From a virus (Duplodnaviria; Heunggongvirae; Uroviricota; Caudoviricetes): a stretch of 43,601 nt of DNA. The first letter of the stretch is position 1. Each line of letters begins with the position of its first letter. Position numbers and translations under genes: made by a program. Shown one piece after another: positions 4,452-24,701 of the stretch. Location: positions 1 through 43,601 of the IMG/VR virus record IMGVR_UViG_3300045988_013455, one strand, 5' to 3'. The notes below the pieces were generated by a model, which was not told the origin of the DNA, made no database searches, and was given only the letters and a program-made list of their open reading frames with translations.

Positions 4452-5872
4452 TTCTTACCTCGTCTCTTCATGTAATTAAGCAACTCTTCCTGTACAGATT
4501 TCTTCTCGTCAGTGCGCGCGGCAACAACCTCGTCCAGCGTGTCTTTAGCAACGATGTGATACAGGAACACCGGGCGCTCGTGGCCTGCTTGCTTCTGGCG
4601 CACCGGGCCTATACGCTCAACGACCTGCAAATAGTGCTCAAGGTTCCAGCCTTGCGAGATGAACGCCAGATGATGCCCGCCGTCCTGTAAATTCAAACCA
4701 TGACCGGCTGACGCAGGGTGGACGCATAAGATTTCGATTTCACCGCGGTTCCACGCTTCCATCTGCTTATTACCCTTCGCACCTTTAGAAAATGCCTGAG
4801 CCTGCGGGAATCGCTTAAGGATGCGCTCAAGTTCGTGCTTGAACTGATAGGCCACAAGCAACGGCGCACCCTGTAACTCCTCAACGATGGACTCAAGCGC
4901 ATCCAGTTTAGTGTCGTGCACTTTCTCCCAGTCTTTGGTTGCTTCTCCGTCTGGTCCTGATACATATACGGCGCCAGATGCAATCTGTAGACACTTCGAC
5001 GTCTTCGCCGCCGCGTTAGCCGCTTCAACTTCTCCGCTCTCCAGTTCCGCGAATAACTTCTCCTCCATATCGATGTACGCCTGGCGCGCTTTCTTCGGCA
5101 GGTCGATTTCAACAGGGACAATAATCGGCGCTTCACATCCGAACCACTCGGCGGCGTCAATCGTGAGACTAATGTCTTTCATCTTCTGGTGGATTTCATT
5201 ATCCGCACCCGGGCGCGCATGATACTCCCGCGCCATAGCCGACTTACCTTTCTGTACCGAGTTAAACCAGCGGTCGGTGAATGCCGTGTACGAAGAACCG
5301 AGGCGCTCGCCCGCGTCGATAAACCAGTTCTGCCCCCACAAGTCCTTGAGACCGTTTGGCGACGGTGTACCCGTCAGATTAATGAAACGCTTAACTTTAC
5401 CGAATGCCACCTTACTGAGCGCCTTAGCCCGCTTGCTCCCGCCAGAACGGCTGCGGAAGGATTTAAGCTTCGTGCTCTCGTCGGCAACAATAACCGTGAA
5501 AGGCCAGTCGTCTTTGCCGTAGTAGTCAATCAGCCACTCGATAACTTCGTAGTTGGTGCACACCACGTTAGCGTCAGACTCCAGCGCCGCGATGCGGCGC
5601 TTCTCTGAACCAGTAGCATCGACGACACTCAGACAAGGGAAGCTCCACTTAGTTTGTTCTGCAGGCCATGTGCCGGACGCAACACGTAACGGGGCAAGTA
5701 TTAACACGCGGTCGTCATCATTAAGTTGGCCGTTTCGGAACAGTCGGTTTAACACCCACATTGTCGACGAGGTCTTGCCGCCGCCCATACCGCACCAGAT
5801 ATTGCAACGTGGGTGCTGTAGCATAAACGACGTCATTATTTTCTGATATTCCCTGCGCCTAAACTTACTCAT
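4448..5872 (-). CDS. SF2 DNA helicase, SNF2-like
   Basis: Motifs GMGGGKT (Walker A), VIVADES (DExx-type), LTGTPSPNGLKDLWGQ (SNF2 motif III) and a C-terminal helicase domain. Confidence 0.8.
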   Translation of the reverse strand: MSKFRRREYQKIMTSFMLQHPRCNIWCGMGGGKTSSTMWVLNRLFRNGQLNDDDRVLILAPLRVASGTWPAEQTKWSFPCLSVVDATGSEKRRIAALESDANVVCTNYEVIEWLIDYYGKDDWPFTVIVADESTKLKSFRSRSGGSKRAKALSKVAFGKVKRFINLTGTPSPNGLKDLWGQNWFIDAGERLGSSYTAFTDRWFNSVQKGKSAMAREYHARPGADNEIHQKMKDISLTIDAAEWFGCEAPIIVPVEIDLPKKARQAYIDMEEKLFAELESGEVEAANAAAKTSKCLQIASGAVYVSGPDGEATKDWEKVHDTKLDALESIVEELQGAPLLVAYQFKHELERILKRFPQAQAFSKGAKGNKQMEAWNRGEIEILCVHPASAGHGLNLQDGGHHLAFISQGWNLEHYLQVVERIGPVRQKQAGHERPVFLYHIVAKDTLDEVVAARTDEKKSVQEELLNYMKRRGKK

Positions 5873-6366
5873 GCCTTGAACTCCCAGAAGTATATTTCCG
5901 CGGCTCTTTGGTATACGCGCGACGCTTCTTCTATAGTGTCAAAATAGCCAAGGTGGATGTATTTGTTATTGACGCCTATTCTGGCGCGCCACCTGCCAGA
6001 GGGTATTTGGTAAACCCCTATCGCGCCGCTAGTGTTATGTGATGAGCAGTCTCGGTTCTGAATCTGCTGGCTCCTGGTTGCTGGCCTTATATTATTTATG
6101 GCGTTATTAGCCCTGTTACGGTCTTTATGGTCAAGCTCACCATTATGATATTCTCCGTAGACGAAAGCCCATGCCAGATGGTGGGCTTTTATTCTTACAC
6201 CAGATACGGTGATAACTATGTATCCTTTGTCGTTTGGACCCCCGGCTACCTCCCCCGCATTCCTACCTTTTATGCTTACTTTCCGTGTAAATACGCCTGT
6301 TTCGGGGTCATAGTTAAGAAGACGTTTCGCCTCCTCAATATCAGGCCTTCTAGTTAATTTGTTCAT
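5869..6366 (-). CDS. HNH homing endonuclease with C-terminal AP2 DNA-binding domain
   Basis: HHLAWAFVYGEY...ELDHKDRNRANNAINNIRPA (HNH) plus GVYQIPSGRWRARI...LGYFDTIEEASRVYQRAA (AP2-like). Confidence 0.7.
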   Translation of the reverse strand: MNKLTRRPDIEEAKRLLNYDPETGVFTRKVSIKGRNAGEVAGGPNDKGYIVITVSGVRIKAHHLAWAFVYGEYHNGELDHKDRNRANNAINNIRPATRSQQIQNRDCSSHNTSGAIGVYQIPSGRWRARIGVNNKYIHLGYFDTIEEASRVYQRAAEIYFWEFKA

Positions 6367-17962: not shown

Positions 17963-18113
17963 ATGAATAATTTCATATCGCAGGCGATGTACGCCGAGGA
18001 AATGGCAAAAAGTATGTTAGAGCAAACATTACGTTTCGCTAAGCTGCAAGGGTTTAATGTAAAGGAAGGAGGCGATGAAATAGTGCTAACAGAGAAGTCG
18101 GAGAACCGCGATG
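17963..18113 (+). CDS. Small hypothetical protein (about 50 aa; not in ORF track, coordinates approximate)
   Basis: My own translation: MNNFISQAMYAEEMAKSMLEQTLRFAKLQGFNVKEGGDEIVLTEKSENRDE. Confidence 0.3.
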
Positions 18114-18503
18114 AGTGACAAAAACGAAGTATTCGAGTACCTGATTGACCAACTACGGCAGCAGGTAACTAGCAACCCATACAAGCAACAGTGCGAAGAC
18201 CTGGCGCATGAGGTGCGGTCACTTAAGAATCAGTTACGCGATGCGTCGGCGCAGATTAAGGAGTTGCAGAGTGAGTTACAGCATCAGATTGACCTGGCGG
18301 CGGGTGTGTATAGATGGTCTACCGCACATTTCGACGAGAAAGGTAAAGTCTTCAAGGTCGAGCGTGGGGTTAAGGCCGAGCAATCTGGTTGCCGTAAGGA
18401 AGACGTGAGGCTTCCTGTATGTCGGTGCGTTCCCGCCCACTGCGGTACCTACCACGGAAACACGATAGTCTGCGACAACTGCGGAGGGGTTATACCTGAA
18501 TGA
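18111..18503 (+). CDS. Hypothetical protein with N-terminal coiled coil and C-terminal Cys/His cluster (130 aa)
   Basis: LKNQLRDASAQIKELQSELQ coiled-coil-like; CRKEDVRLPVCRCVPAHCGTYHGNTIVCDNCGG. Confidence 0.45.
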   Translation: MSDKNEVFEYLIDQLRQQVTSNPYKQQCEDLAHEVRSLKNQLRDASAQIKELQSELQHQIDLAAGVYRWSTAHFDEKGKVFKVERGVKAEQSGCRKEDVRLPVCRCVPAHCGTYHGNTIVCDNCGGVIPE

Positions 18504-18703
18504 CCAGCATCTTATTTATATGGGTACTGTCCGCAGGCCAGATGCAACTCGCGGCAGCAGAAACGTTTTACTCGATGGAGGCGTGCCAGTCAGCAGCACG
18601 CGCCGCAGAGAACGCGCACTTTCTGTTCCAGGGCGACAAGCCCAACGATTCAGAGGTACGCGCTATCTGCTCACCTAAGCGACTTGGTAAACAGGAGAAG
18701 TGA
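18500..18703 (+). CDS. Hypothetical protein (67 aa) with hydrophobic N-terminus
   Basis: MTSILFIWVLSAGQMQLAAA..., possible signal-like segment. Confidence 0.4.
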   Translation: MTSILFIWVLSAGQMQLAAAETFYSMEACQSAARAAENAHFLFQGDKPNDSEVRAICSPKRLGKQEK

Positions 18704-19008
18704 TTATGGTACAGAGATACGATGTATGGTGCATAGAAGATATTTTTAAGAATAGCCACGACGGTAGCTACGTTAAGTACGAAGACTATGCGAAACTCGA
18801 AGCCGAGTTACAGAAATACAAAGACCAGTTCCCGGATTATGTAGAGTGCGCGAACTGTGGGTCGGTCACACATGTGGAAGGGGTTGAAGACGCTATGGGG
18901 CAACACGGTTGCCATAAAGAAGACGCCAAAGAATGTGAACACGTGTGGAATAGGTACATTGTACACCCTCACAGAAAGATATGTTTAGTATGCGGGGTGA
19001 AGGAATGA
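18700..19008 (+). CDS. Cys/His-rich putative zinc-binding protein (102 aa)
   Basis: GTG start; CANCGS...HGCHKEDAKECEH...CLVCG. Confidence 0.45.
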   Translation: MIMVQRYDVWCIEDIFKNSHDGSYVKYEDYAKLEAELQKYKDQFPDYVECANCGSVTHVEGVEDAMGQHGCHKEDAKECEHVWNRYIVHPHRKICLVCGVKE

Positions 19009-19298
19009 CACTTGCAACTGACATCCTGAAACGAAGTGGCCTTGTGCCGCTGGCACCGGGAGCTAAAACACGGATATACAGGCGTCGCCATAACGCGCTG
19101 TACCCCGAGATTCAGGCCAGACGCAAAGCTGTCCGCGCCTGTGGGTTCCAGAACGGGAAGGCCGTGAATCTCGGTGAGTTCAAGACAAAGGAACGCGCCG
19201 CTATCGCTAATCGGTTATTTAATTACTGGAAATCACTGGGATACGATGATATTCCGACGAAACCACAGAGACGACAATACATCTGGAGACATAAATGA
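18981..19298 (+). CDS. Stand-alone AP2-like DNA-binding domain protein (105 aa)
   Basis: IYRRRHN...KAVNLGEFKTKERAAIANRLFNYWKSLG matches the AP2 pattern of HNH-AP2 endonucleases, without an HNH domain. Confidence 0.4.
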   Translation: MFSMRGEGMTLATDILKRSGLVPLAPGAKTRIYRRRHNALYPEIQARRKAVRACGFQNGKAVNLGEFKTKERAAIANRLFNYWKSLGYDDIPTKPQRRQYIWRHK

Positions 19299-19735
19299 CG
19301 ACTATCGCGTTTGACGGAAAGACAATGGCCTGTGACACCCGTGTTGTGTGCGGGAGTAACTGTTACAACACAGACACAAAGATATACGAGAATGACCATT
19401 TCATAATTGGGGTAGCCGGGGACGCAGGAGTTGGGGTTATGCTAATCCGTGATAATGGCGTACTTAATCCAAAATCATACGACTTCGATTTCGAAGCCCT
19501 TGTGTTCGTGAAAGACACAGAAAAGGTGTATAAAGTCGCGTTCTATAAATCATGGGATTGTGCGCTTAGTTCGGTTATTCCTGTTGCCGATAGCTTCGCC
19601 GCCGTGGGGTCTGGCGCGCCATATGCCCTGGCGGCTATGGAATGTGAGTATTCGGCACATGGTGGCGTAGCCGTCGCTTCAAAGTTTGACCCTAACACCG
19701 GCGGTAAGATTATTACCAAACAACTATTAGGATAA
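19295..19735 (+). CDS. HslV-like Ntn-hydrolase (proteasome beta-subunit-like peptidase)
   Basis: MTTIAFDG... N-terminal Thr after Met; FIIGVAGDAGVGV; AAVGSGAPYALAAME aligns with HslV GSGGPYAQAAARAL. Confidence 0.65.
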   Translation: MTTIAFDGKTMACDTRVVCGSNCYNTDTKIYENDHFIIGVAGDAGVGVMLIRDNGVLNPKSYDFDFEALVFVKDTEKVYKVAFYKSWDCALSSVIPVADSFAAVGSGAPYALAAMECEYSAHGGVAVASKFDPNTGGKIITKQLLG

Positions 19736-19749
19736 TTCCTACCCGTGGT

Positions 19750-19789
19750 ATCCTCCAGTTACTGCATACTTAATACGCACCTGGAGGAT
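19750..19789 (+). promoter_or_regulatory. Stem-loop sequestering the holin RBS (possible translational control)
   Basis: ATCCTCCAG (19750-58) pairs perfectly with CTGGAGGAT (19781-89), which contains the GGAGGA Shine-Dalgarno of the TTG-start holin. Confidence 0.45.
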
Positions 19790-19794
19790 TCATC

Positions 19795-20103
19795 TTGGAT
19801 AAATTTACTGAAACAGTGACAGGCTGGCTCCTGGCCGCCGCACTCGCCGGAGGGGTTATCGGACTACGACAACATAAGTCCGCTATTTCTGGCCCCATCG
19901 ACGGCTTCTGCTTTATTGCAACCGGCTTCACTTGCGCCGTATTTGGCGCACCTCTCGCAGCTCAATGGTTCGGTATCACGGGCGACCGTGAAATCGCGGG
20001 CCTGGGCTTCATTATCGCTATTCTCTGGATGCCTATCTATTCCCGCCTTTCCGGTATCGTCGCCGGAGAATACATTGCACGTCGAGGAGGCCCGGATGAA
20101 TGA
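19795..20103 (+). CDS. Putative holin (three predicted transmembrane segments; TTG start)
   Basis: Hydrophobic stretches LLAAALAGGVIGL, FCFIATGFTCAVFGAPLAA, IAGLGFIIAILWMPIY; directly upstream of endolysin. Confidence 0.55.
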   Translation: MDKFTETVTGWLLAAALAGGVIGLRQHKSAISGPIDGFCFIATGFTCAVFGAPLAAQWFGITGDREIAGLGFIIAILWMPIYSRLSGIVAGEYIARRGGPDE

Positions 20104-20368
20104 GTTATTCTGGTTTGTCGTAATGCTGGCAATGGGCGCTTCGTCCCTGTTCAACGTGTATAATGAACGCGTGGACGACGGGCTGTTCGGGCGTGTTCTC
20201 TATATCCTGACTGCTATCGTCTGTGCCGCCGGATGTATTCACCTGTTACAGGGCAGCATGTCGCCTACGCTGCCTGAGACCTTAATCACATTAGTTGCAC
20301 TGCGCCAGATTCGCCAGGCGTGGCTGTCATACGGAGGGCATAAGCGTGTCTCGAAACATTTCAGATAA
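20096..20368 (+). CDS. Second small membrane protein of the lysis cassette (holin/antiholin-like; two TMDs)
   Basis: RBS GAGGAGG then ATG; LFWFVVMLAMGASSLF and VLYILTAIVCAAGCIHLL. Confidence 0.4.
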   Translation: MNELFWFVVMLAMGASSLFNVYNERVDDGLFGRVLYILTAIVCAAGCIHLLQGSMSPTLPETLITLVALRQIRQAWLSYGGHKRVSKHFR

Positions 20369-20834
20369 TGGATTGCATTTTACCGCTGCGTTCGAGGGGT
20401 TCCGTGGAACTGCGTATCGTGCTACACCGAACGAGAAGTACCTGACGATAGGCTACGGGCACTATGGGTCAGACGTAACACCGGGTAAGACCATCACGCC
20501 AGGGCAAGGCCTCCTGTTACTGAATCGCGATATGGCTAAAGCCGTAGCTGCGGTTGATGCGGCCGCCCACCATTCATTGACACAGGCACAGTTCGATGCG
20601 GTGTGCGACCTGGTGTATAACGCAGGTGCTGGCGTGATTGCGTCTACTACAGGCACGGGCAAGGCGCTGCGTTCCGGAGATATTGTGACACTGCGGGCTA
20701 AGCTGGCGCTGTTCATCAATCAGAACGGCAAACCGTTACTTGGTCTGCGCCGCCGTACCGCCGGGCGTCTTGCGCTGTTCGACGGTAAACCGTGGCAAGA
20801 GGCTGAAGCTATTGGGCGCGCGGTGAAAGGTTGA
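20346..20834 (+). CDS. Endolysin, GH24 lysozyme family
   Basis: AFEGFRGTAYRATPNEKYLTIGYGH, the Glu...Thr catalytic region pattern of T4/lambda-type lysozymes; GTG start after GGAGGG (track ORF from 20295). Confidence 0.8.
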   Translation: MSRNISDNGLHFTAAFEGFRGTAYRATPNEKYLTIGYGHYGSDVTPGKTITPGQGLLLLNRDMAKAVAAVDAAAHHSLTQAQFDAVCDLVYNAGAGVIASTTGTGKALRSGDIVTLRAKLALFINQNGKPLLGLRRRTAGRLALFDGKPWQEAEAIGRAVKG

Positions 20835-22859: not shown

Positions 22860-22913
22860 TATAATCCCTTTAGACGCGTAGGGCGCGTCTGATGCGCTCT
22901 GATGGTCAGACGC
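22860..22913 (+). promoter_or_regulatory. Consensus -10 (TATAAT) without a good -35, followed by nested inverted repeats upstream of terS
   Basis: TATAAT at 22860-65; hairpins AGACGCG/CGCGTCT and GCGTCTGA/TCAGACGC; tandem TCTGATG. Confidence 0.35.
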
Positions 22914-22930
22914 ATACGCAAGGGGATTCT

Positions 22931-23440
22931 ATGAAGCTGAAACTTAAGCAGCCATCGCCAGAGGTGGTGCAAGCTGCACATGAAGAAGCTGTTAGCGCAA
23001 ACCGTCGCCGTAAACGACCGCGCGGTAAGCAGAGCCTTTATCAATCATCCCGTAATTCCGCCGCGTTGTGGGACCCGGACTATTGCGACGAATTGATTCG
23101 TTTCTTCGACCGCACATCATGGGAGCTTGTGCCTACGTCCAAGGGCGAAGAACGCCCGCTGATTCAGGATAAACCCCCGTCACTGGCACGCTTCGCCTTA
23201 CACATCGGCGTCACTATCCCGATTATTAAGCTGTGGCTGCGCGAGATTCCCGCATTTGCAGAAGCATATGAAACAGCACAGGCACTGGAAGAGGCATACT
23301 TCACTGAGACGGGCGCGGCGGGCATCTCTGCTACGTTTGCTGCCGCGAAACTGGGGTTGAATAAAACTGTCGCCACCGAAGAAGCACGCGACGAGCCAAT
23401 CAGTGAAGTAACCATTAAGGTGGTGTCCGGTGAACGTTAA
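22931..23440 (+). CDS. Terminase small subunit
   Basis: Directly upstream of and overlapping terL; SLARFALHIGVTIPIIKLWLREIPAFAEAYETAQALEEAYF resembles Terminase_2 small subunits; RBS AAGGGGA. Confidence 0.65.
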   Translation: MKLKLKQPSPEVVQAAHEEAVSANRRRKRPRGKQSLYQSSRNSAALWDPDYCDELIRFFDRTSWELVPTSKGEERPLIQDKPPSLARFALHIGVTIPIIKLWLREIPAFAEAYETAQALEEAYFTETGAAGISATFAAAKLGLNKTVATEEARDEPISEVTIKVVSGER

Positions 23441-24701
23441 TATCACGGCAACGGAACCGCAAGGCGCGTTTCTCGGTATGCACTGTAAGTTCCCGGCATT
23501 CGTCGCCGGCTTCGGTACTGGCAAATCCGAGGTTATGTGCAACTCAGCACTACTAGACAGCATGGAAGGCGGTAGCGATTCTATCATCGCCATGTACGAG
23601 CCGACTTATGACCTTGTGCGCCTTATCCTTGCGCCACGTATGGAAGAGAAGTTGACTGACTGGGGTGTGAGGTACAAATACAATAAGTCCGACAACATAA
23701 TATATACGTCATCTGGGCAATTCGGCGATTTTGTCCTGCGTACACTAGATAATCCAGCACGAATCGTTGGCTACGAATCGTTTCGTGCAAAAATCGACGA
23801 GTTGGACACCCTTAACATGGAGCACGCCGAGCATGCGTGGAACAAGGTCATCGCCCGTAACCGCCAGTTGCCGCGGACGTATAAACCTATTACACCGAAA
23901 CCGGCTAATACCGTTTCCGTGTTCACTACGCCGGAAGGGTTCCGTTTTGTGCATGACCGCTGGGTTGTTAAAAAGAACCCTGGTTACGAGATGATTCAGG
24001 CGTCCACCCTGTCTAACCCGTTCCTGCCAGAAGATTATGTGCAGTCATTACGCGACACATACCCAGGTCAGTTGATTGACGCCTACATCAACGGCGAGTT
24101 CGTAAACCTCACGTCCGGAACGGTCTACTACGCCTACGACCGCAGGAAAAACAGCAGCCGCGAAACAATCAAACCCGGAGAGACTCTGTATATTGGGCAG
24201 GATTTTAACGTAGGCCACATGGCTAGCACAGTTTACGTGCAACGTGGTAAGGTCTGGCACGCTGTTGCCGAGTTGGTCGATATGTTCGATACGCCTGACG
24301 TAGTGCGGGCCATAACTGAGCGATGGAAAAGTAAAGGCCACTATATCGTTATGTACCCTGACGCCAGCGGCAAAAACCGTAAAAGCAACAACGCCAGTAC
24401 CTCCGACATCGCCCAGTTACAGCAGGCCGGGTTCGAAGTGCGTGCAAAATCGACAAACCCACCGGTTAAAGACCGCGTATCAGCAATGAACAAGGCGCTT
24501 GAATCTGGTATGGTCATGATTAACGAGCAGGCTTGCCCTGTTACTGCGCGATGCTTAGAGCAACAGGCTTACGACAAGAACGGCGAACCGGATAAATCAG
24601 GTGGCGTGGACCACCAGAATGATGGAACCACATACCCTATCGCGTATGAAATGCCGATTCGCAAACCAGTTATTAACGTCCCGGTGACTTTCGCACTTTA
24701 A
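23430..24701 (+). CDS. Terminase large subunit
   Basis: Walker A GFGTGKS near the N-terminus; size and position before portal. Confidence 0.85.
   Translation: MNVNITATEPQGAFLGMHCKFPAFVAGFGTGKSEVMCNSALLDSMEGGSDSIIAMYEPTYDLVRLILAPRMEEKLTDWGVRYKYNKSDNIIYTSSGQFGDFVLRTLDNPARIVGYESFRAKIDELDTLNMEHAEHAWNKVIARNRQLPRTYKPITPKPANTVSVFTTPEGFRFVHDRWVVKKNPGYEMIQASTLSNPFLPEDYVQSLRDTYPGQLIDAYINGEFVNLTSGTVYYAYDRRKNSSRETIKPGETLYIGQDFNVGHMASTVYVQRGKVWHAVAELVDMFDTPDVVRAITERWKSKGHYIVMYPDASGKNRKSNNASTSDIAQLQQAGFEVRAKSTNPPVKDRVSAMNKALESGMVMINEQACPVTARCLEQQAYDKNGEPDKSGGVDHQNDGTTYPIAYEMPIRKPVINVPVTFAL

What the first reader, a model, noticed from the sequence alone, without database searches (positions are those of the whole stretch)
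19295..19735. Phage-encoded HslV-like (proteasome beta-subunit-like) peptidase
The 146-aa ORF begins MTTIAFDG, with the Thr that would become the N-terminal nucleophile after Met removal, and carries GDAG and GSGAPYALAAME blocks that align by eye with E. coli HslV. It lies at the end of the early block, not in the head module, so it is unlikely to be a prohead protease. No HslU-like ATPase is encoded, suggesting it may use host HslU or act alone.
Basis: partly seen in the sequence, partly recalled or inferred. Interest (0 to 1): 0.65.

Follow-up and report, generated by a model that had tools for sequence, protein, structure and literature searches.

The report
Known phage proteasome-like peptidase (PPH)
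The ORF is a real, conserved and probably active threonine peptidase related to the proteasome and HslV, but it belongs to an already described phage family (PPH), is routinely annotated in related phages, is missing from some close relatives, and has no experimentally tested role.

Summary

It is not an HslV orthologue. It scores 15 bits against HslV equivalog cutoffs of 137-158, and it lacks helix H2, which contributes to the HslU-tail pocket. [quoted passage not shown] An identical protein in Salmonella phage VT223 is already annotated "peptidase HslV family".

- The gene is an accessory cassette, cleanly absent from sister Kagunaviruses.
- It was recently exchanged with a Jerseyvirus.
- It is under purifying selection (dN/dS about 0.14).
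- In other phages it often sits beside terminase/portal or inside the neck module.
- No unfoldase partner is encoded.

I found no experimental test of its function. Verdict: observation confirmed, interpretation largely right, novelty low.

The parts
19295..19735 (+). Coding sequence of the 146-aa PPH-family (proteasome/HslV-like) N-terminal-nucleophile peptidase, stop codon included
19285..19289 (+). Shine-Dalgarno-like GGAGA, 5 nt upstream of the ATG
   Evidence: Read directly from the sequence
19295..19298 (+). ATGA start/stop overlap with the upstream ORF 18981..19298 (PHROG_9632, unknown function), suggesting translational coupling
19298..19300 (+). Codon for Thr2, the predicted N-terminal nucleophile once Met1 is removed (equivalent to Thr1 of HslV and proteasome beta)
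   Evidence: Invariant in alignment A1. T or S in 136 of 136 independent representatives. Aligned to Thr1 of HslV and beta5
19334..19336 (+). Codon for Asp14 (equivalent to Asp17)
   Evidence: Invariant; aligned to HslV D17
19379..19381 (+). Codon for Lys29 (equivalent to Lys33)
   Evidence: Invariant; aligned to HslV K33
19418..19420 (+). Codon for Gly42 (equivalent to the oxyanion-hole Gly47 of proteasome beta)
   Evidence: Conserved in 135 of 136 representatives; aligned to the AGG motif of beta5
19607..19615 (+). Codons for Gly105-Ser106-Gly107 (GSG motif; Ser106 equivalent to Ser129)
   Evidence: G105 and G107 invariant, S106 at least 90 % conserved; S in 125 of 136 representatives
19688..19699 (+). 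Codons for Asp132-Pro-Asn-Thr135 (Asp132 equivalent to Asp166, Thr135 to Ser169 of proteasome beta)
   Evidence: hhalign vs beta5; D in 111 of 136 and T/C/S in 135 of 136 representatives
19297..19724 (+). Gene-sized segment that is present or absent among Kagunaviruses: 428 bp here are replaced by 7 nt in phages fFiEco03 and Ro145c2YLVW
   Evidence: blastn and junction sequences; tblastn finds no significant match to this protein in those loci (no hit, or E 0.8)
19253..19855 (+). Island 98.3 % identical to Jerseyvirus VT223 in a genome otherwise 75-94 % identical or unalignable to it, consistent with recent lateral exchange of the cassette
   Evidence: megablast of the window against VT223

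Best explanation

Shown here: homology, fold, loss of helix H2, complete conservation of the catalytic apparatus, purifying selection, accessory (present/absent) status, and absence of any phage-encoded AAA+ partner.

Inferred mechanism: host methionine aminopeptidase removes Met1, which Thr at position 2 permits. This exposes Thr2, whose hydroxyl attacks the scissile peptide bond and whose free alpha-amino group, together with Lys29 and Asp14, acts in proton transfer. The Gly42 amide forms the oxyanion hole. Ser106, Asp132 and Thr135 hold the active site in place, as in proteasome beta subunits.

The enzyme most likely self-assembles and works without an unfoldase, as proposed for BPH, on peptides, unfolded proteins or specific protein termini. 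In this phage it sits at the end of a translationally coupled string of small genes directly upstream of the holin-holin-endolysin cassette. It is a dispensable fitness or accessory function, not a core function of the phage. Its substrate is unknown.
For: - PPH diagnosis: about 140 aa, helix H2 absent, no propeptide, found in Caudovirales and prophages (paper). The model has only helices 46-52, 108-116 and 121-131. 232 of 240 homologs start MTT.
- Active-site conservation: T/S2, D14 and K29 in 136 of 136 representatives, G42 in 135 of 136; invariant columns in A1.
- Selection: median dN/dS 0.14 over 85 pairs.
- Accessory status: precise absence in two Kagunaviruses. The protein is detected in 30 Escherichia-named and 3 Kagunavirus-named phage records, against 102 and 11 that match the surrounding region.
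- No partner: no unfoldase in the window, and no conserved neighbour outside the Guernseyvirinae across 63 loci.
Against: - No biochemical evidence exists for any PPH; I found none in 9 literature searches (for example).
- Loss of H2 might prevent ring formation, and isolated proteasome-type subunits are inactive (paper text), so activity as modelled is not guaranteed.
- Independence from HslU is inferred only from the missing H2 and the pocket residues reported in PMC6429459.
- Expression timing is unknown.
Confidence: 0.72

Rival explanations
1. Host-HslU hijack. The phage peptidase docks onto host HslU hexamers, replacing or competing with host HslV, and so forms an ATP-dependent protease with altered specificity or diverts HslU away from HslV.
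For: HslV is among its closest solved relatives. The hosts (E. coli, Salmonella) possess HslUV (general knowledge). No phage unfoldase is encoded. Like E. coli HslV, the protein starts MTT with no propeptide.
Against: Helix H2 is absent (paper), and H2 residues Ala79/Lys80 together with H1 Phe54/Phe57 line the HslU C-tail pocket (PMC6429459). The Phe54 and Phe57 equivalents here are Val48 and Ile51, and HslV Lys28 falls in an alignment gap. The protein scores only 15 bits against HslV equivalog cutoffs of 137-158. [quoted passage not shown]
Confidence: 0.12
2. Site-specific processing protease, or transpeptidase, for phage morphogenetic or lysis proteins or for a defined host target. This would be analogous to Prp/Rrp trimming of N-terminal extensions, or to connectase, and not to a bulk degradative protease.
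For: In 19 of 43 de-replicated loci the homolog lies within five genes of head, packaging or neck genes. Two layouts recur: directly upstream of TerS/TerL-portal-MuF, and between adaptor Ad1 and the tail terminator. Here it directly precedes the lysis cassette, in the same orientation as the terminase and structural genes downstream. A proteasome-like Ntn hydrolase linked to a mobile element (Rrp, SP_1145) was recently reported to cleave the bL27 N-terminal extension (bioRxiv 10.64898/2026.08.10.744006). Connectase shows that proteasome homologs lacking the H1/H2 pair can be specific monomeric enzymes. No prohead protease is annotated in the 37 kb retrieved from relative VT223.
Confidence: 0.25
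3. Catalytically irrelevant protein: a pseudo-enzyme or decoy that acts by binding (for example poisoning host HslV rings or sequestering a host factor), or a decaying passenger gene.
For: The gene is dispensable in relatives. No activity has ever been shown for the family.
Against: The nucleophile, Asp, Lys and oxyanion Gly are invariant across at least 136 clusters at 50 % identity. dN/dS is about 0.14. 232 of 240 homologs keep the exact Met-Thr-Thr start needed to expose Thr. A decoy would not need to keep the full catalytic set.
Confidence: 0.05

Closest known systems
[quoted passage not shown]
   Same: Size (146 aa against about 140). No propeptide. Helix H2 missing. Catalytic triad and Gly47 equivalent retained. 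Carried by tailed phages of Proteobacteria and by prophages. Nearest relatives are BPH and HslV.
   Different: Nothing essential; this is a member. The Guernseyvirinae clade has GSGAPYALAAM where most of the family has GSGRDFALAAM.
HslV (ClpQ), the peptidase of the bacterial HslUV ATP-dependent protease
   Same: Same fold and the same Thr1/Asp17/Lys33/GSG active site. MTT start with only Met removed. Full-length profile alignment.
   Different: About 30 residues shorter. H2 is absent and the H3-H4 linker is shortened. It fails the TIGR03692 and NF003964 cutoffs (15.5 vs 157.75 bits and 14.5 vs 137 bits). There is no adjacent hslU. The HslU-tail pocket residues are not conserved.
BPH (beta-proteobacteria proteasome homologue; PDB 5OVS/5OVT/5OVU)
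   Different: BPH is about 185-200 aa with both H1 and H2 and a long acidic pore loop, and it forms a tetradecameric double ring (PMC5777263 title; paper text). It is chromosomal, not phage-borne.
20S proteasome catalytic beta subunits (for example beta5)
   Different: No propeptide, no H2, no H5/S12, and no alpha-ring partner. About 60 residues shorter.
Rrp (SP_1145) of S. pneumoniae TIGR4, and connectase
   Same: These are proteasome-like Ntn hydrolases with specific, non-degradative roles. Rrp lies on a phage-like element near terS. Connectase lacks H1/H2 and is monomeric.

Membership tests
Proteasome-like Ntn hydrolase superfamily (Pfam PF00227) | Significant match to the family profile | tested here: met
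   PF00227 23.4 bits against a gathering score of 22.4, E 5.3e-5. The family profile hits HslV, BPH and beta5 in the PDB at 6e-9 to 1e-6.
Proteasome-like Ntn hydrolase superfamily (Pfam PF00227) | Alpha-beta-beta-alpha Ntn sandwich fold | tested here: met
Proteasome-like Ntn hydrolase superfamily (Pfam PF00227) | N-terminal Thr/Ser nucleophile plus Asp17, Lys33 and Gly47 equivalents | tested here: met
   T2, D14, K29 and G42 are invariant or nearly so and align to the canonical positions.
Proteasome-like Ntn hydrolase superfamily (Pfam PF00227) | Hydrolytic activity dependent on Thr1 | not testable with these tools
   Needs biochemistry.
PPH (Fuchs et al. 2021) | About 140 residues, with no propeptide and no C-terminal S12/H5 | tested here: met
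   146 aa, starts MTT, ends shortly after the last strand. Family median length is 148 aa.
PPH (Fuchs et al. 2021) | Lacks helix H2 while keeping H1, H3 and H4 | tested here: met
   The model's helices are 46-52, 108-116 and 121-131 only; residues 53-65 are coil.
PPH (Fuchs et al. 2021) | Occurs in tailed phages and in prophage regions of their hosts | tested here: met
   The window is a Kagunavirus-like phage. Homologs occur in 311 phage records, 383 viral-contig stretches and prophage contexts.
PPH (Fuchs et al. 2021) | Group I affinity (closest to BPH and HslV) | tested here: met
   Top PDB sequence-profile and structure hits are HslV and BPH.
PPH (Fuchs et al. 2021) | Clusters with the paper's reference sequence WP_042125023.1 | not testable with these tools
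   The reference sequence could not be retrieved. It was not among the accessions listed for 10 clusters, and the supplement holds no sequences.
HslV proper (TIGR03692 / NF003964 equivalogs) | Score above the curated equivalog cutoff | tested here: not met
   15.5 bits vs 157.75 and 14.5 bits vs 137.
HslV proper (TIGR03692 / NF003964 equivalogs) | Apical H1/H2 helix pair forming the HslU C-tail pocket (F54, F57, A79, K80, Q114 in E. coli and H. influenzae HslV) | tested here: not met
   H2 is absent in the model. The F54 and F57 equivalents are V48 and I51. Pocket residues are taken from PMC6429459.
HslV proper (TIGR03692 / NF003964 equivalogs) | Encoded with its HslU ATPase partner | tested here: not met
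   No HslU, ClpX or Lon-type AAA+ protein in the window, and none conserved next to homologs.
HslV proper (TIGR03692 / NF003964 equivalogs) | Dodecamer of two hexameric rings, activated by HslU | not testable with these tools
Prohead (capsid maturation) protease | Located between the portal and major capsid genes and required for head maturation | tested here: not met
   In this window the gene lies about 3 kb upstream of the terminase, next to the holins. It is absent from sister phages that have the same flanking and lysis genes. Homologs elsewhere do sit in neck or packaging modules, so a morphogenetic role in those phages is not excluded.

The most novel reading that the evidence does not exclude
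PPH could be an unfoldase-independent enzyme, co-expressed with late genes, that performs a specific proteolytic or transpeptidation step. Candidates are trimming or inactivating a defined phage morphogenesis or lysis protein, or a host factor such as a defence protein. On this reading its scattered distribution reflects a conditional benefit that depends on the host. This would give the first functional assignment for a viral proteasome homolog and a Gram-negative counterpart to the Prp/Rrp processing proteases. The recurrent placement next to terminase/portal and inside neck modules, the placement directly before the lysis cassette here, and the recent cassette exchange are compatible with this reading but do not demonstrate it.
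Probability: 0.2. Interest if true: 0.6.

Novelty: already known. Interest (0 to 1): 0.25.

Why it matters
Proteasome homologs in viruses are a real curiosity. [quoted passage not shown] This window does not add a new kind of element. It does offer a convenient natural experiment. Near-isogenic Kagunaviruses differ by a clean 428-bp presence/absence of the gene, and it sits in a tractable E. coli/Salmonella phage. The BASEL collection holds one phage annotated with the gene (GertrudWoker_Bas73) and one whose annotation under this region lists no such protein (NicoleGrasset_Bas72). That pairing makes the open question of what a mini-proteasome subunit does for a phage without an unfoldase directly testable. 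As a scan finding it is ordinary: correctly recognised, already annotated and already described.

Tried and rejected
- Partner search. I looked for a conserved AAA+ or other partner next to homologs in 83 viral loci and in three metagenomic or prophage contexts. None is conserved outside the closely related Guernseyvirinae.
- Domain fusions. Ten family members with C-terminal extensions (213-308 aa) had no Pfam domain in the extension.
- Self-assembly.
- Defence and anti-defence. There is no PADLOC match for this protein or its upstream neighbour.
- Literature. Nine searches found no experimental work on PPH or on phage HslV-like proteins. Phage genome papers only list the annotation. The JSS1_004 paper mentions host hslUV only.
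- Reference sequence. I could not retrieve the paper's PPH reference WP_042125023.1.
- Promoters and terminators. The consensus scan around the gene gave no more sites than shuffled sequence, so transcription timing could not be assigned.
- Single-sequence phmmer against the PDB was uninformative; the top hit was a spurious decarboxylase at E 0.006. The family profile was needed.
- Rejected readings. Prohead protease in this phage, because of its position and its absence from sister phages. HslV orthologue, because it fails the equivalog cutoffs and lacks H2. Chance ORF, because of the profile statistics and dN/dS.

Full report
**Observation.** The window has an ATG-initiated ORF at 19295..19735 on the + strand. 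A GGAGA Shine-Dalgarno lies 5 nt upstream. The ATG overlaps the TGA stop of the preceding ORF (ATGA). That ORF is the last of a string of five small unknown-function ORFs (17963-19298), most of which have overlapping or abutting start and stop codons. Downstream, after a 59-nt spacer, come a class II holin (19795-20103), a class I holin (20093-20368) and an endolysin (ending at 20834). Terminase (22892-24701), portal, MuF-like, scaffold and major capsid genes follow on the same strand. The replication genes (SNF2 helicase, family A polymerase, ssDNA-binding protein, PD-(D/E)XK nuclease, primase-helicase) lie on the opposite strand.

**What the phage is.** The structural region is about 91-92 % identical to E. 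coli Kagunaviruses (Guernseyvirinae) such as phiWAO78-1 and NTEC3. The region around the finding matches Kagunaviruses at 84-89 %.

**Homology.**
- The protein matches PHROG_1040 'peptidase HslV family' at E 2.5e-34. It matches Pfam PF00227 (Proteasome) at 23.4 bits, just above the gathering score of 22.4.
- Against NCBIfam it scores only 14.5-20 bits where the equivalog cutoffs for HslV and proteasome beta are 137-224 bits. It belongs to the superfamily but is not an orthologue of HslV.
- Single-sequence phmmer against the PDB is uninformative.
- I collected homologs with two searches and built a 75-sequence alignment at about 30 % mean identity (A1). Its profile hits HslV structures at E 6e-9, followed by BPH and catalytic beta5 subunits.
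- hhalign aligns the family end to end with E. coli HslV (95.7 %, E 9e-9) and with human beta5 (96.4 %, E 1.5e-9).

**Catalytic residues.** In these alignments:
- Thr2 pairs with Thr1.
- Asp14 pairs with Asp17.
- Lys29 pairs with Lys33.
- Gly42 pairs with the oxyanion-hole Gly47.
- Ser106, in the GSG motif, pairs with Ser129.
- Asp132 pairs with Asp166.
- Thr135 pairs with Ser169.

In A1, the residues M1, T2, I4, A5, D14, K29, G105, G107, A111 and A114 are invariant. 232 of 240 homologs begin MTT. In an independent set of 136 cluster representatives at 50 % identity, position 2 is T (120) or S (16), D14 and K29 are 136 of 136, and G42 is 135 of 136. The exhaustive profile search finds 901 representatives at E <= 1e-30 and 12,692 at E <= 1e-3. 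The family is therefore large; I did not inspect the weak tail, which may include HslV and other homologs.

[quoted passage not shown] PPH/RPC are the only homologs that lack helix H2 while retaining the catalytic triad and Gly47. Every one of those features was reproduced independently here. The one thing I could not do is compare directly with their reference sequence WP_042125023.1.

Public records already carry the annotation. The identical protein in Salmonella phage VT223 is 'peptidase HslV family'. Kagunavirus and Jerseyvirus records call it 'protease', 'ATP-dependent protease', 'HslV family peptidase' or 'hypothetical protein'. I found no experimental study of PPH or of any phage HslV-like protein.

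**HslU question.** No AAA+ unfoldase is encoded in the window or in the part of the annotated relative VT223 that was retrieved. None is a conserved neighbour of homologs elsewhere. In HslV, the HslU C-terminal tails insert into pockets between subunits that involve Phe54 and Phe57 (H1), Ala79 and Lys80 (H2) and Gln114 (PMC6429459). In this protein H2 is gone, the Phe54 and Phe57 equivalents are Val48 and Ile51, and HslV Lys28 falls in an alignment gap. [quoted passage not shown] I therefore consider use of host HslU unlikely (about 0.1), but this is inference.

**Accessory status and mobility (new here).**
- The window is only 75-94 % identical to Jerseyvirus VT223 in scattered patches, yet 19253-19855 (the gene plus 42 nt upstream and 120 nt downstream) is 98.3 % identical. 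This indicates recent exchange of the cassette between genera. Typical Jerseyvirus copies are only about 62 % identical in protein sequence.
- Kagunaviruses fFiEco03 and Ro145c2YLVW lack the gene precisely. Homology to the window stops at 19296 and resumes at 19725, and 428 bp are replaced by 7 nt. The last 11 nt of the ORF (TATTAGGATAA) are retained, which reads as a deletion scar.
- tblastn finds the protein in 30 Escherichia-named and 3 Kagunavirus-named phage records, while 102 and 11 such records match the surrounding region. Roughly a third of these phages carry it.
- Where present it is under purifying selection, with median dN/dS 0.14 and range 0.03-0.26 over 85 pairs.
- Taken together, it is a functional but dispensable gene.

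**Context across the family (new here).** I took the 80 viral loci returned by the search for related loci plus four other loci, called ORFs crudely, and clustered neighbours within five genes on either side. I labelled the recurrent clusters with PHROGs. After de-replication at 70 % PPH identity, 19 of 43 loci have head, packaging or neck genes within five genes. Two layouts recur:
- PPH, then a TerS-sized ORF, TerL, portal and MuF.
- Scaffold, MCP, one ORF, adaptor Ad1, PPH, two ORFs, then the tail terminator.

One prophage copy sits next to a PhageMetallopep gene just before the terminase. A Klebsiella myophage copy sits in a small island on the opposite strand among tail genes. The family thus tends to travel with late or morphogenesis genes. 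A recent preprint reports that Rrp, a proteasome-like Ntn hydrolase on a phage-like element, specifically trims the bL27 N-terminal extension. Connectase is a specific ligase. A specific processing role is therefore a credible rival, at about 0.25.

**Mechanism proposed.**
- Shown: family, fold, active-site conservation, selection, accessory status, and lack of an encoded partner.
- Inferred: Met1 is removed by host methionine aminopeptidase (Thr at P1' is permissive; established knowledge). Thr2 is the nucleophile, with its own alpha-amine and Lys29/Asp14 in proton transfer, and the Gly42 amide forms the oxyanion hole. The protein self-assembles and needs no unfoldase. It acts on peptides, unfolded chains or particular termini during infection.
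- Timing: it was not established here. The scan for promoters and terminators found no more than chance.

**Verdict.** The element is an already described and already annotated family member, so novelty is 'already known' and interest is low (0.25). Its value lies in the open functional question and in the natural presence/absence pairs that would make it testable.

Noticed in passing
window 19253-19855: This 603-bp island (the peptidase gene plus short flanks) is 98.3 % identical to Jerseyvirus VT223. The rest of the window is only 75-94 % identical to VT223 or does not align by megablast. This suggests recent inter-genus exchange of the gene cassette.
   Followed up: partly
window 19297-19724; loci L087 (1072-1078) and L088 (881-887): There is a clean gene-sized presence/absence polymorphism. 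Kagunaviruses fFiEco03 and Ro145c2YLVW have 7 nt where the window has 428 bp, and they keep the last 11 nt of the ORF as an apparent deletion scar.
   Followed up: yes
window 19745-19792: A stable RNA hairpin lies between the peptidase stop and the class II holin TTG start at 19795 (MFE -19.6 kcal/mol, z -2.87; 2 of 200 shuffles fold as well). Its 3' arm pairs the holin's GGAGGA Shine-Dalgarno. It has no U-tract, so it looks like a translational regulator of the holin and not a terminator. The 5' arm is conserved in phages that lack the peptidase.
   Followed up: partly
window 19795-20834: The lysis cassette has two overlapping holins (PHROG_2359 class II-like at 19795-20103; PHROG_2508 at 20093-20368) and an endolysin whose longest ORF (TTG at 20295) overlaps the second holin by about 70 nt. 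The holin start is TTG.
   Followed up: no
window 18111-18503 and 18700-19008: Two small ORFs upstream both match PHROG_6094 and have Cys-rich, zinc-ribbon-like C-termini (CxxC...CxxC). They look like paralogues. The second also has a weak Lar-like restriction-alleviation match, E 5.7e-4.
   Followed up: no
window 5869-6366 (-): An HNH_3 plus AP2-domain ORF (homing-endonuclease type) sits between the SNF2-like helicase and the family A DNA polymerase.
   Followed up: no
loci L058, L068, L051, L082, L059, L055, L079: In several unrelated viral contigs the PPH gene is embedded in the neck module, in the order scaffold, MCP, one ORF, adaptor Ad1, PPH, two ORFs, tail terminator. This is an unusual place for a non-structural enzyme.
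   Followed up: partly
locus L003, 8001-9063: In a lambdoid Pseudomonas prophage the PPH gene overlaps the start of a PhageMetallopep (PF18894) gene, directly upstream of the terminase. Two putative peptidases are adjacent.
   Followed up: no
proteins P0162, P0254, P0261, P0280, P0318, P0335, P0338, P0347, P0368: Some family members carry 60-160-residue C-terminal extensions with no Pfam match. They may correspond to the 'RPC' group of Fuchs et al. (related to PPH, with a C-terminal extension).
   Followed up: partly
PHROG_1040 profile against the window protein: The PHROG_1040 profile is 277 positions long, but this protein matches only positions 14-155. The PHROG therefore appears to merge short PPH proteins with longer proteasome-like phage proteins under the single label 'peptidase HslV family'.
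   Followed up: no
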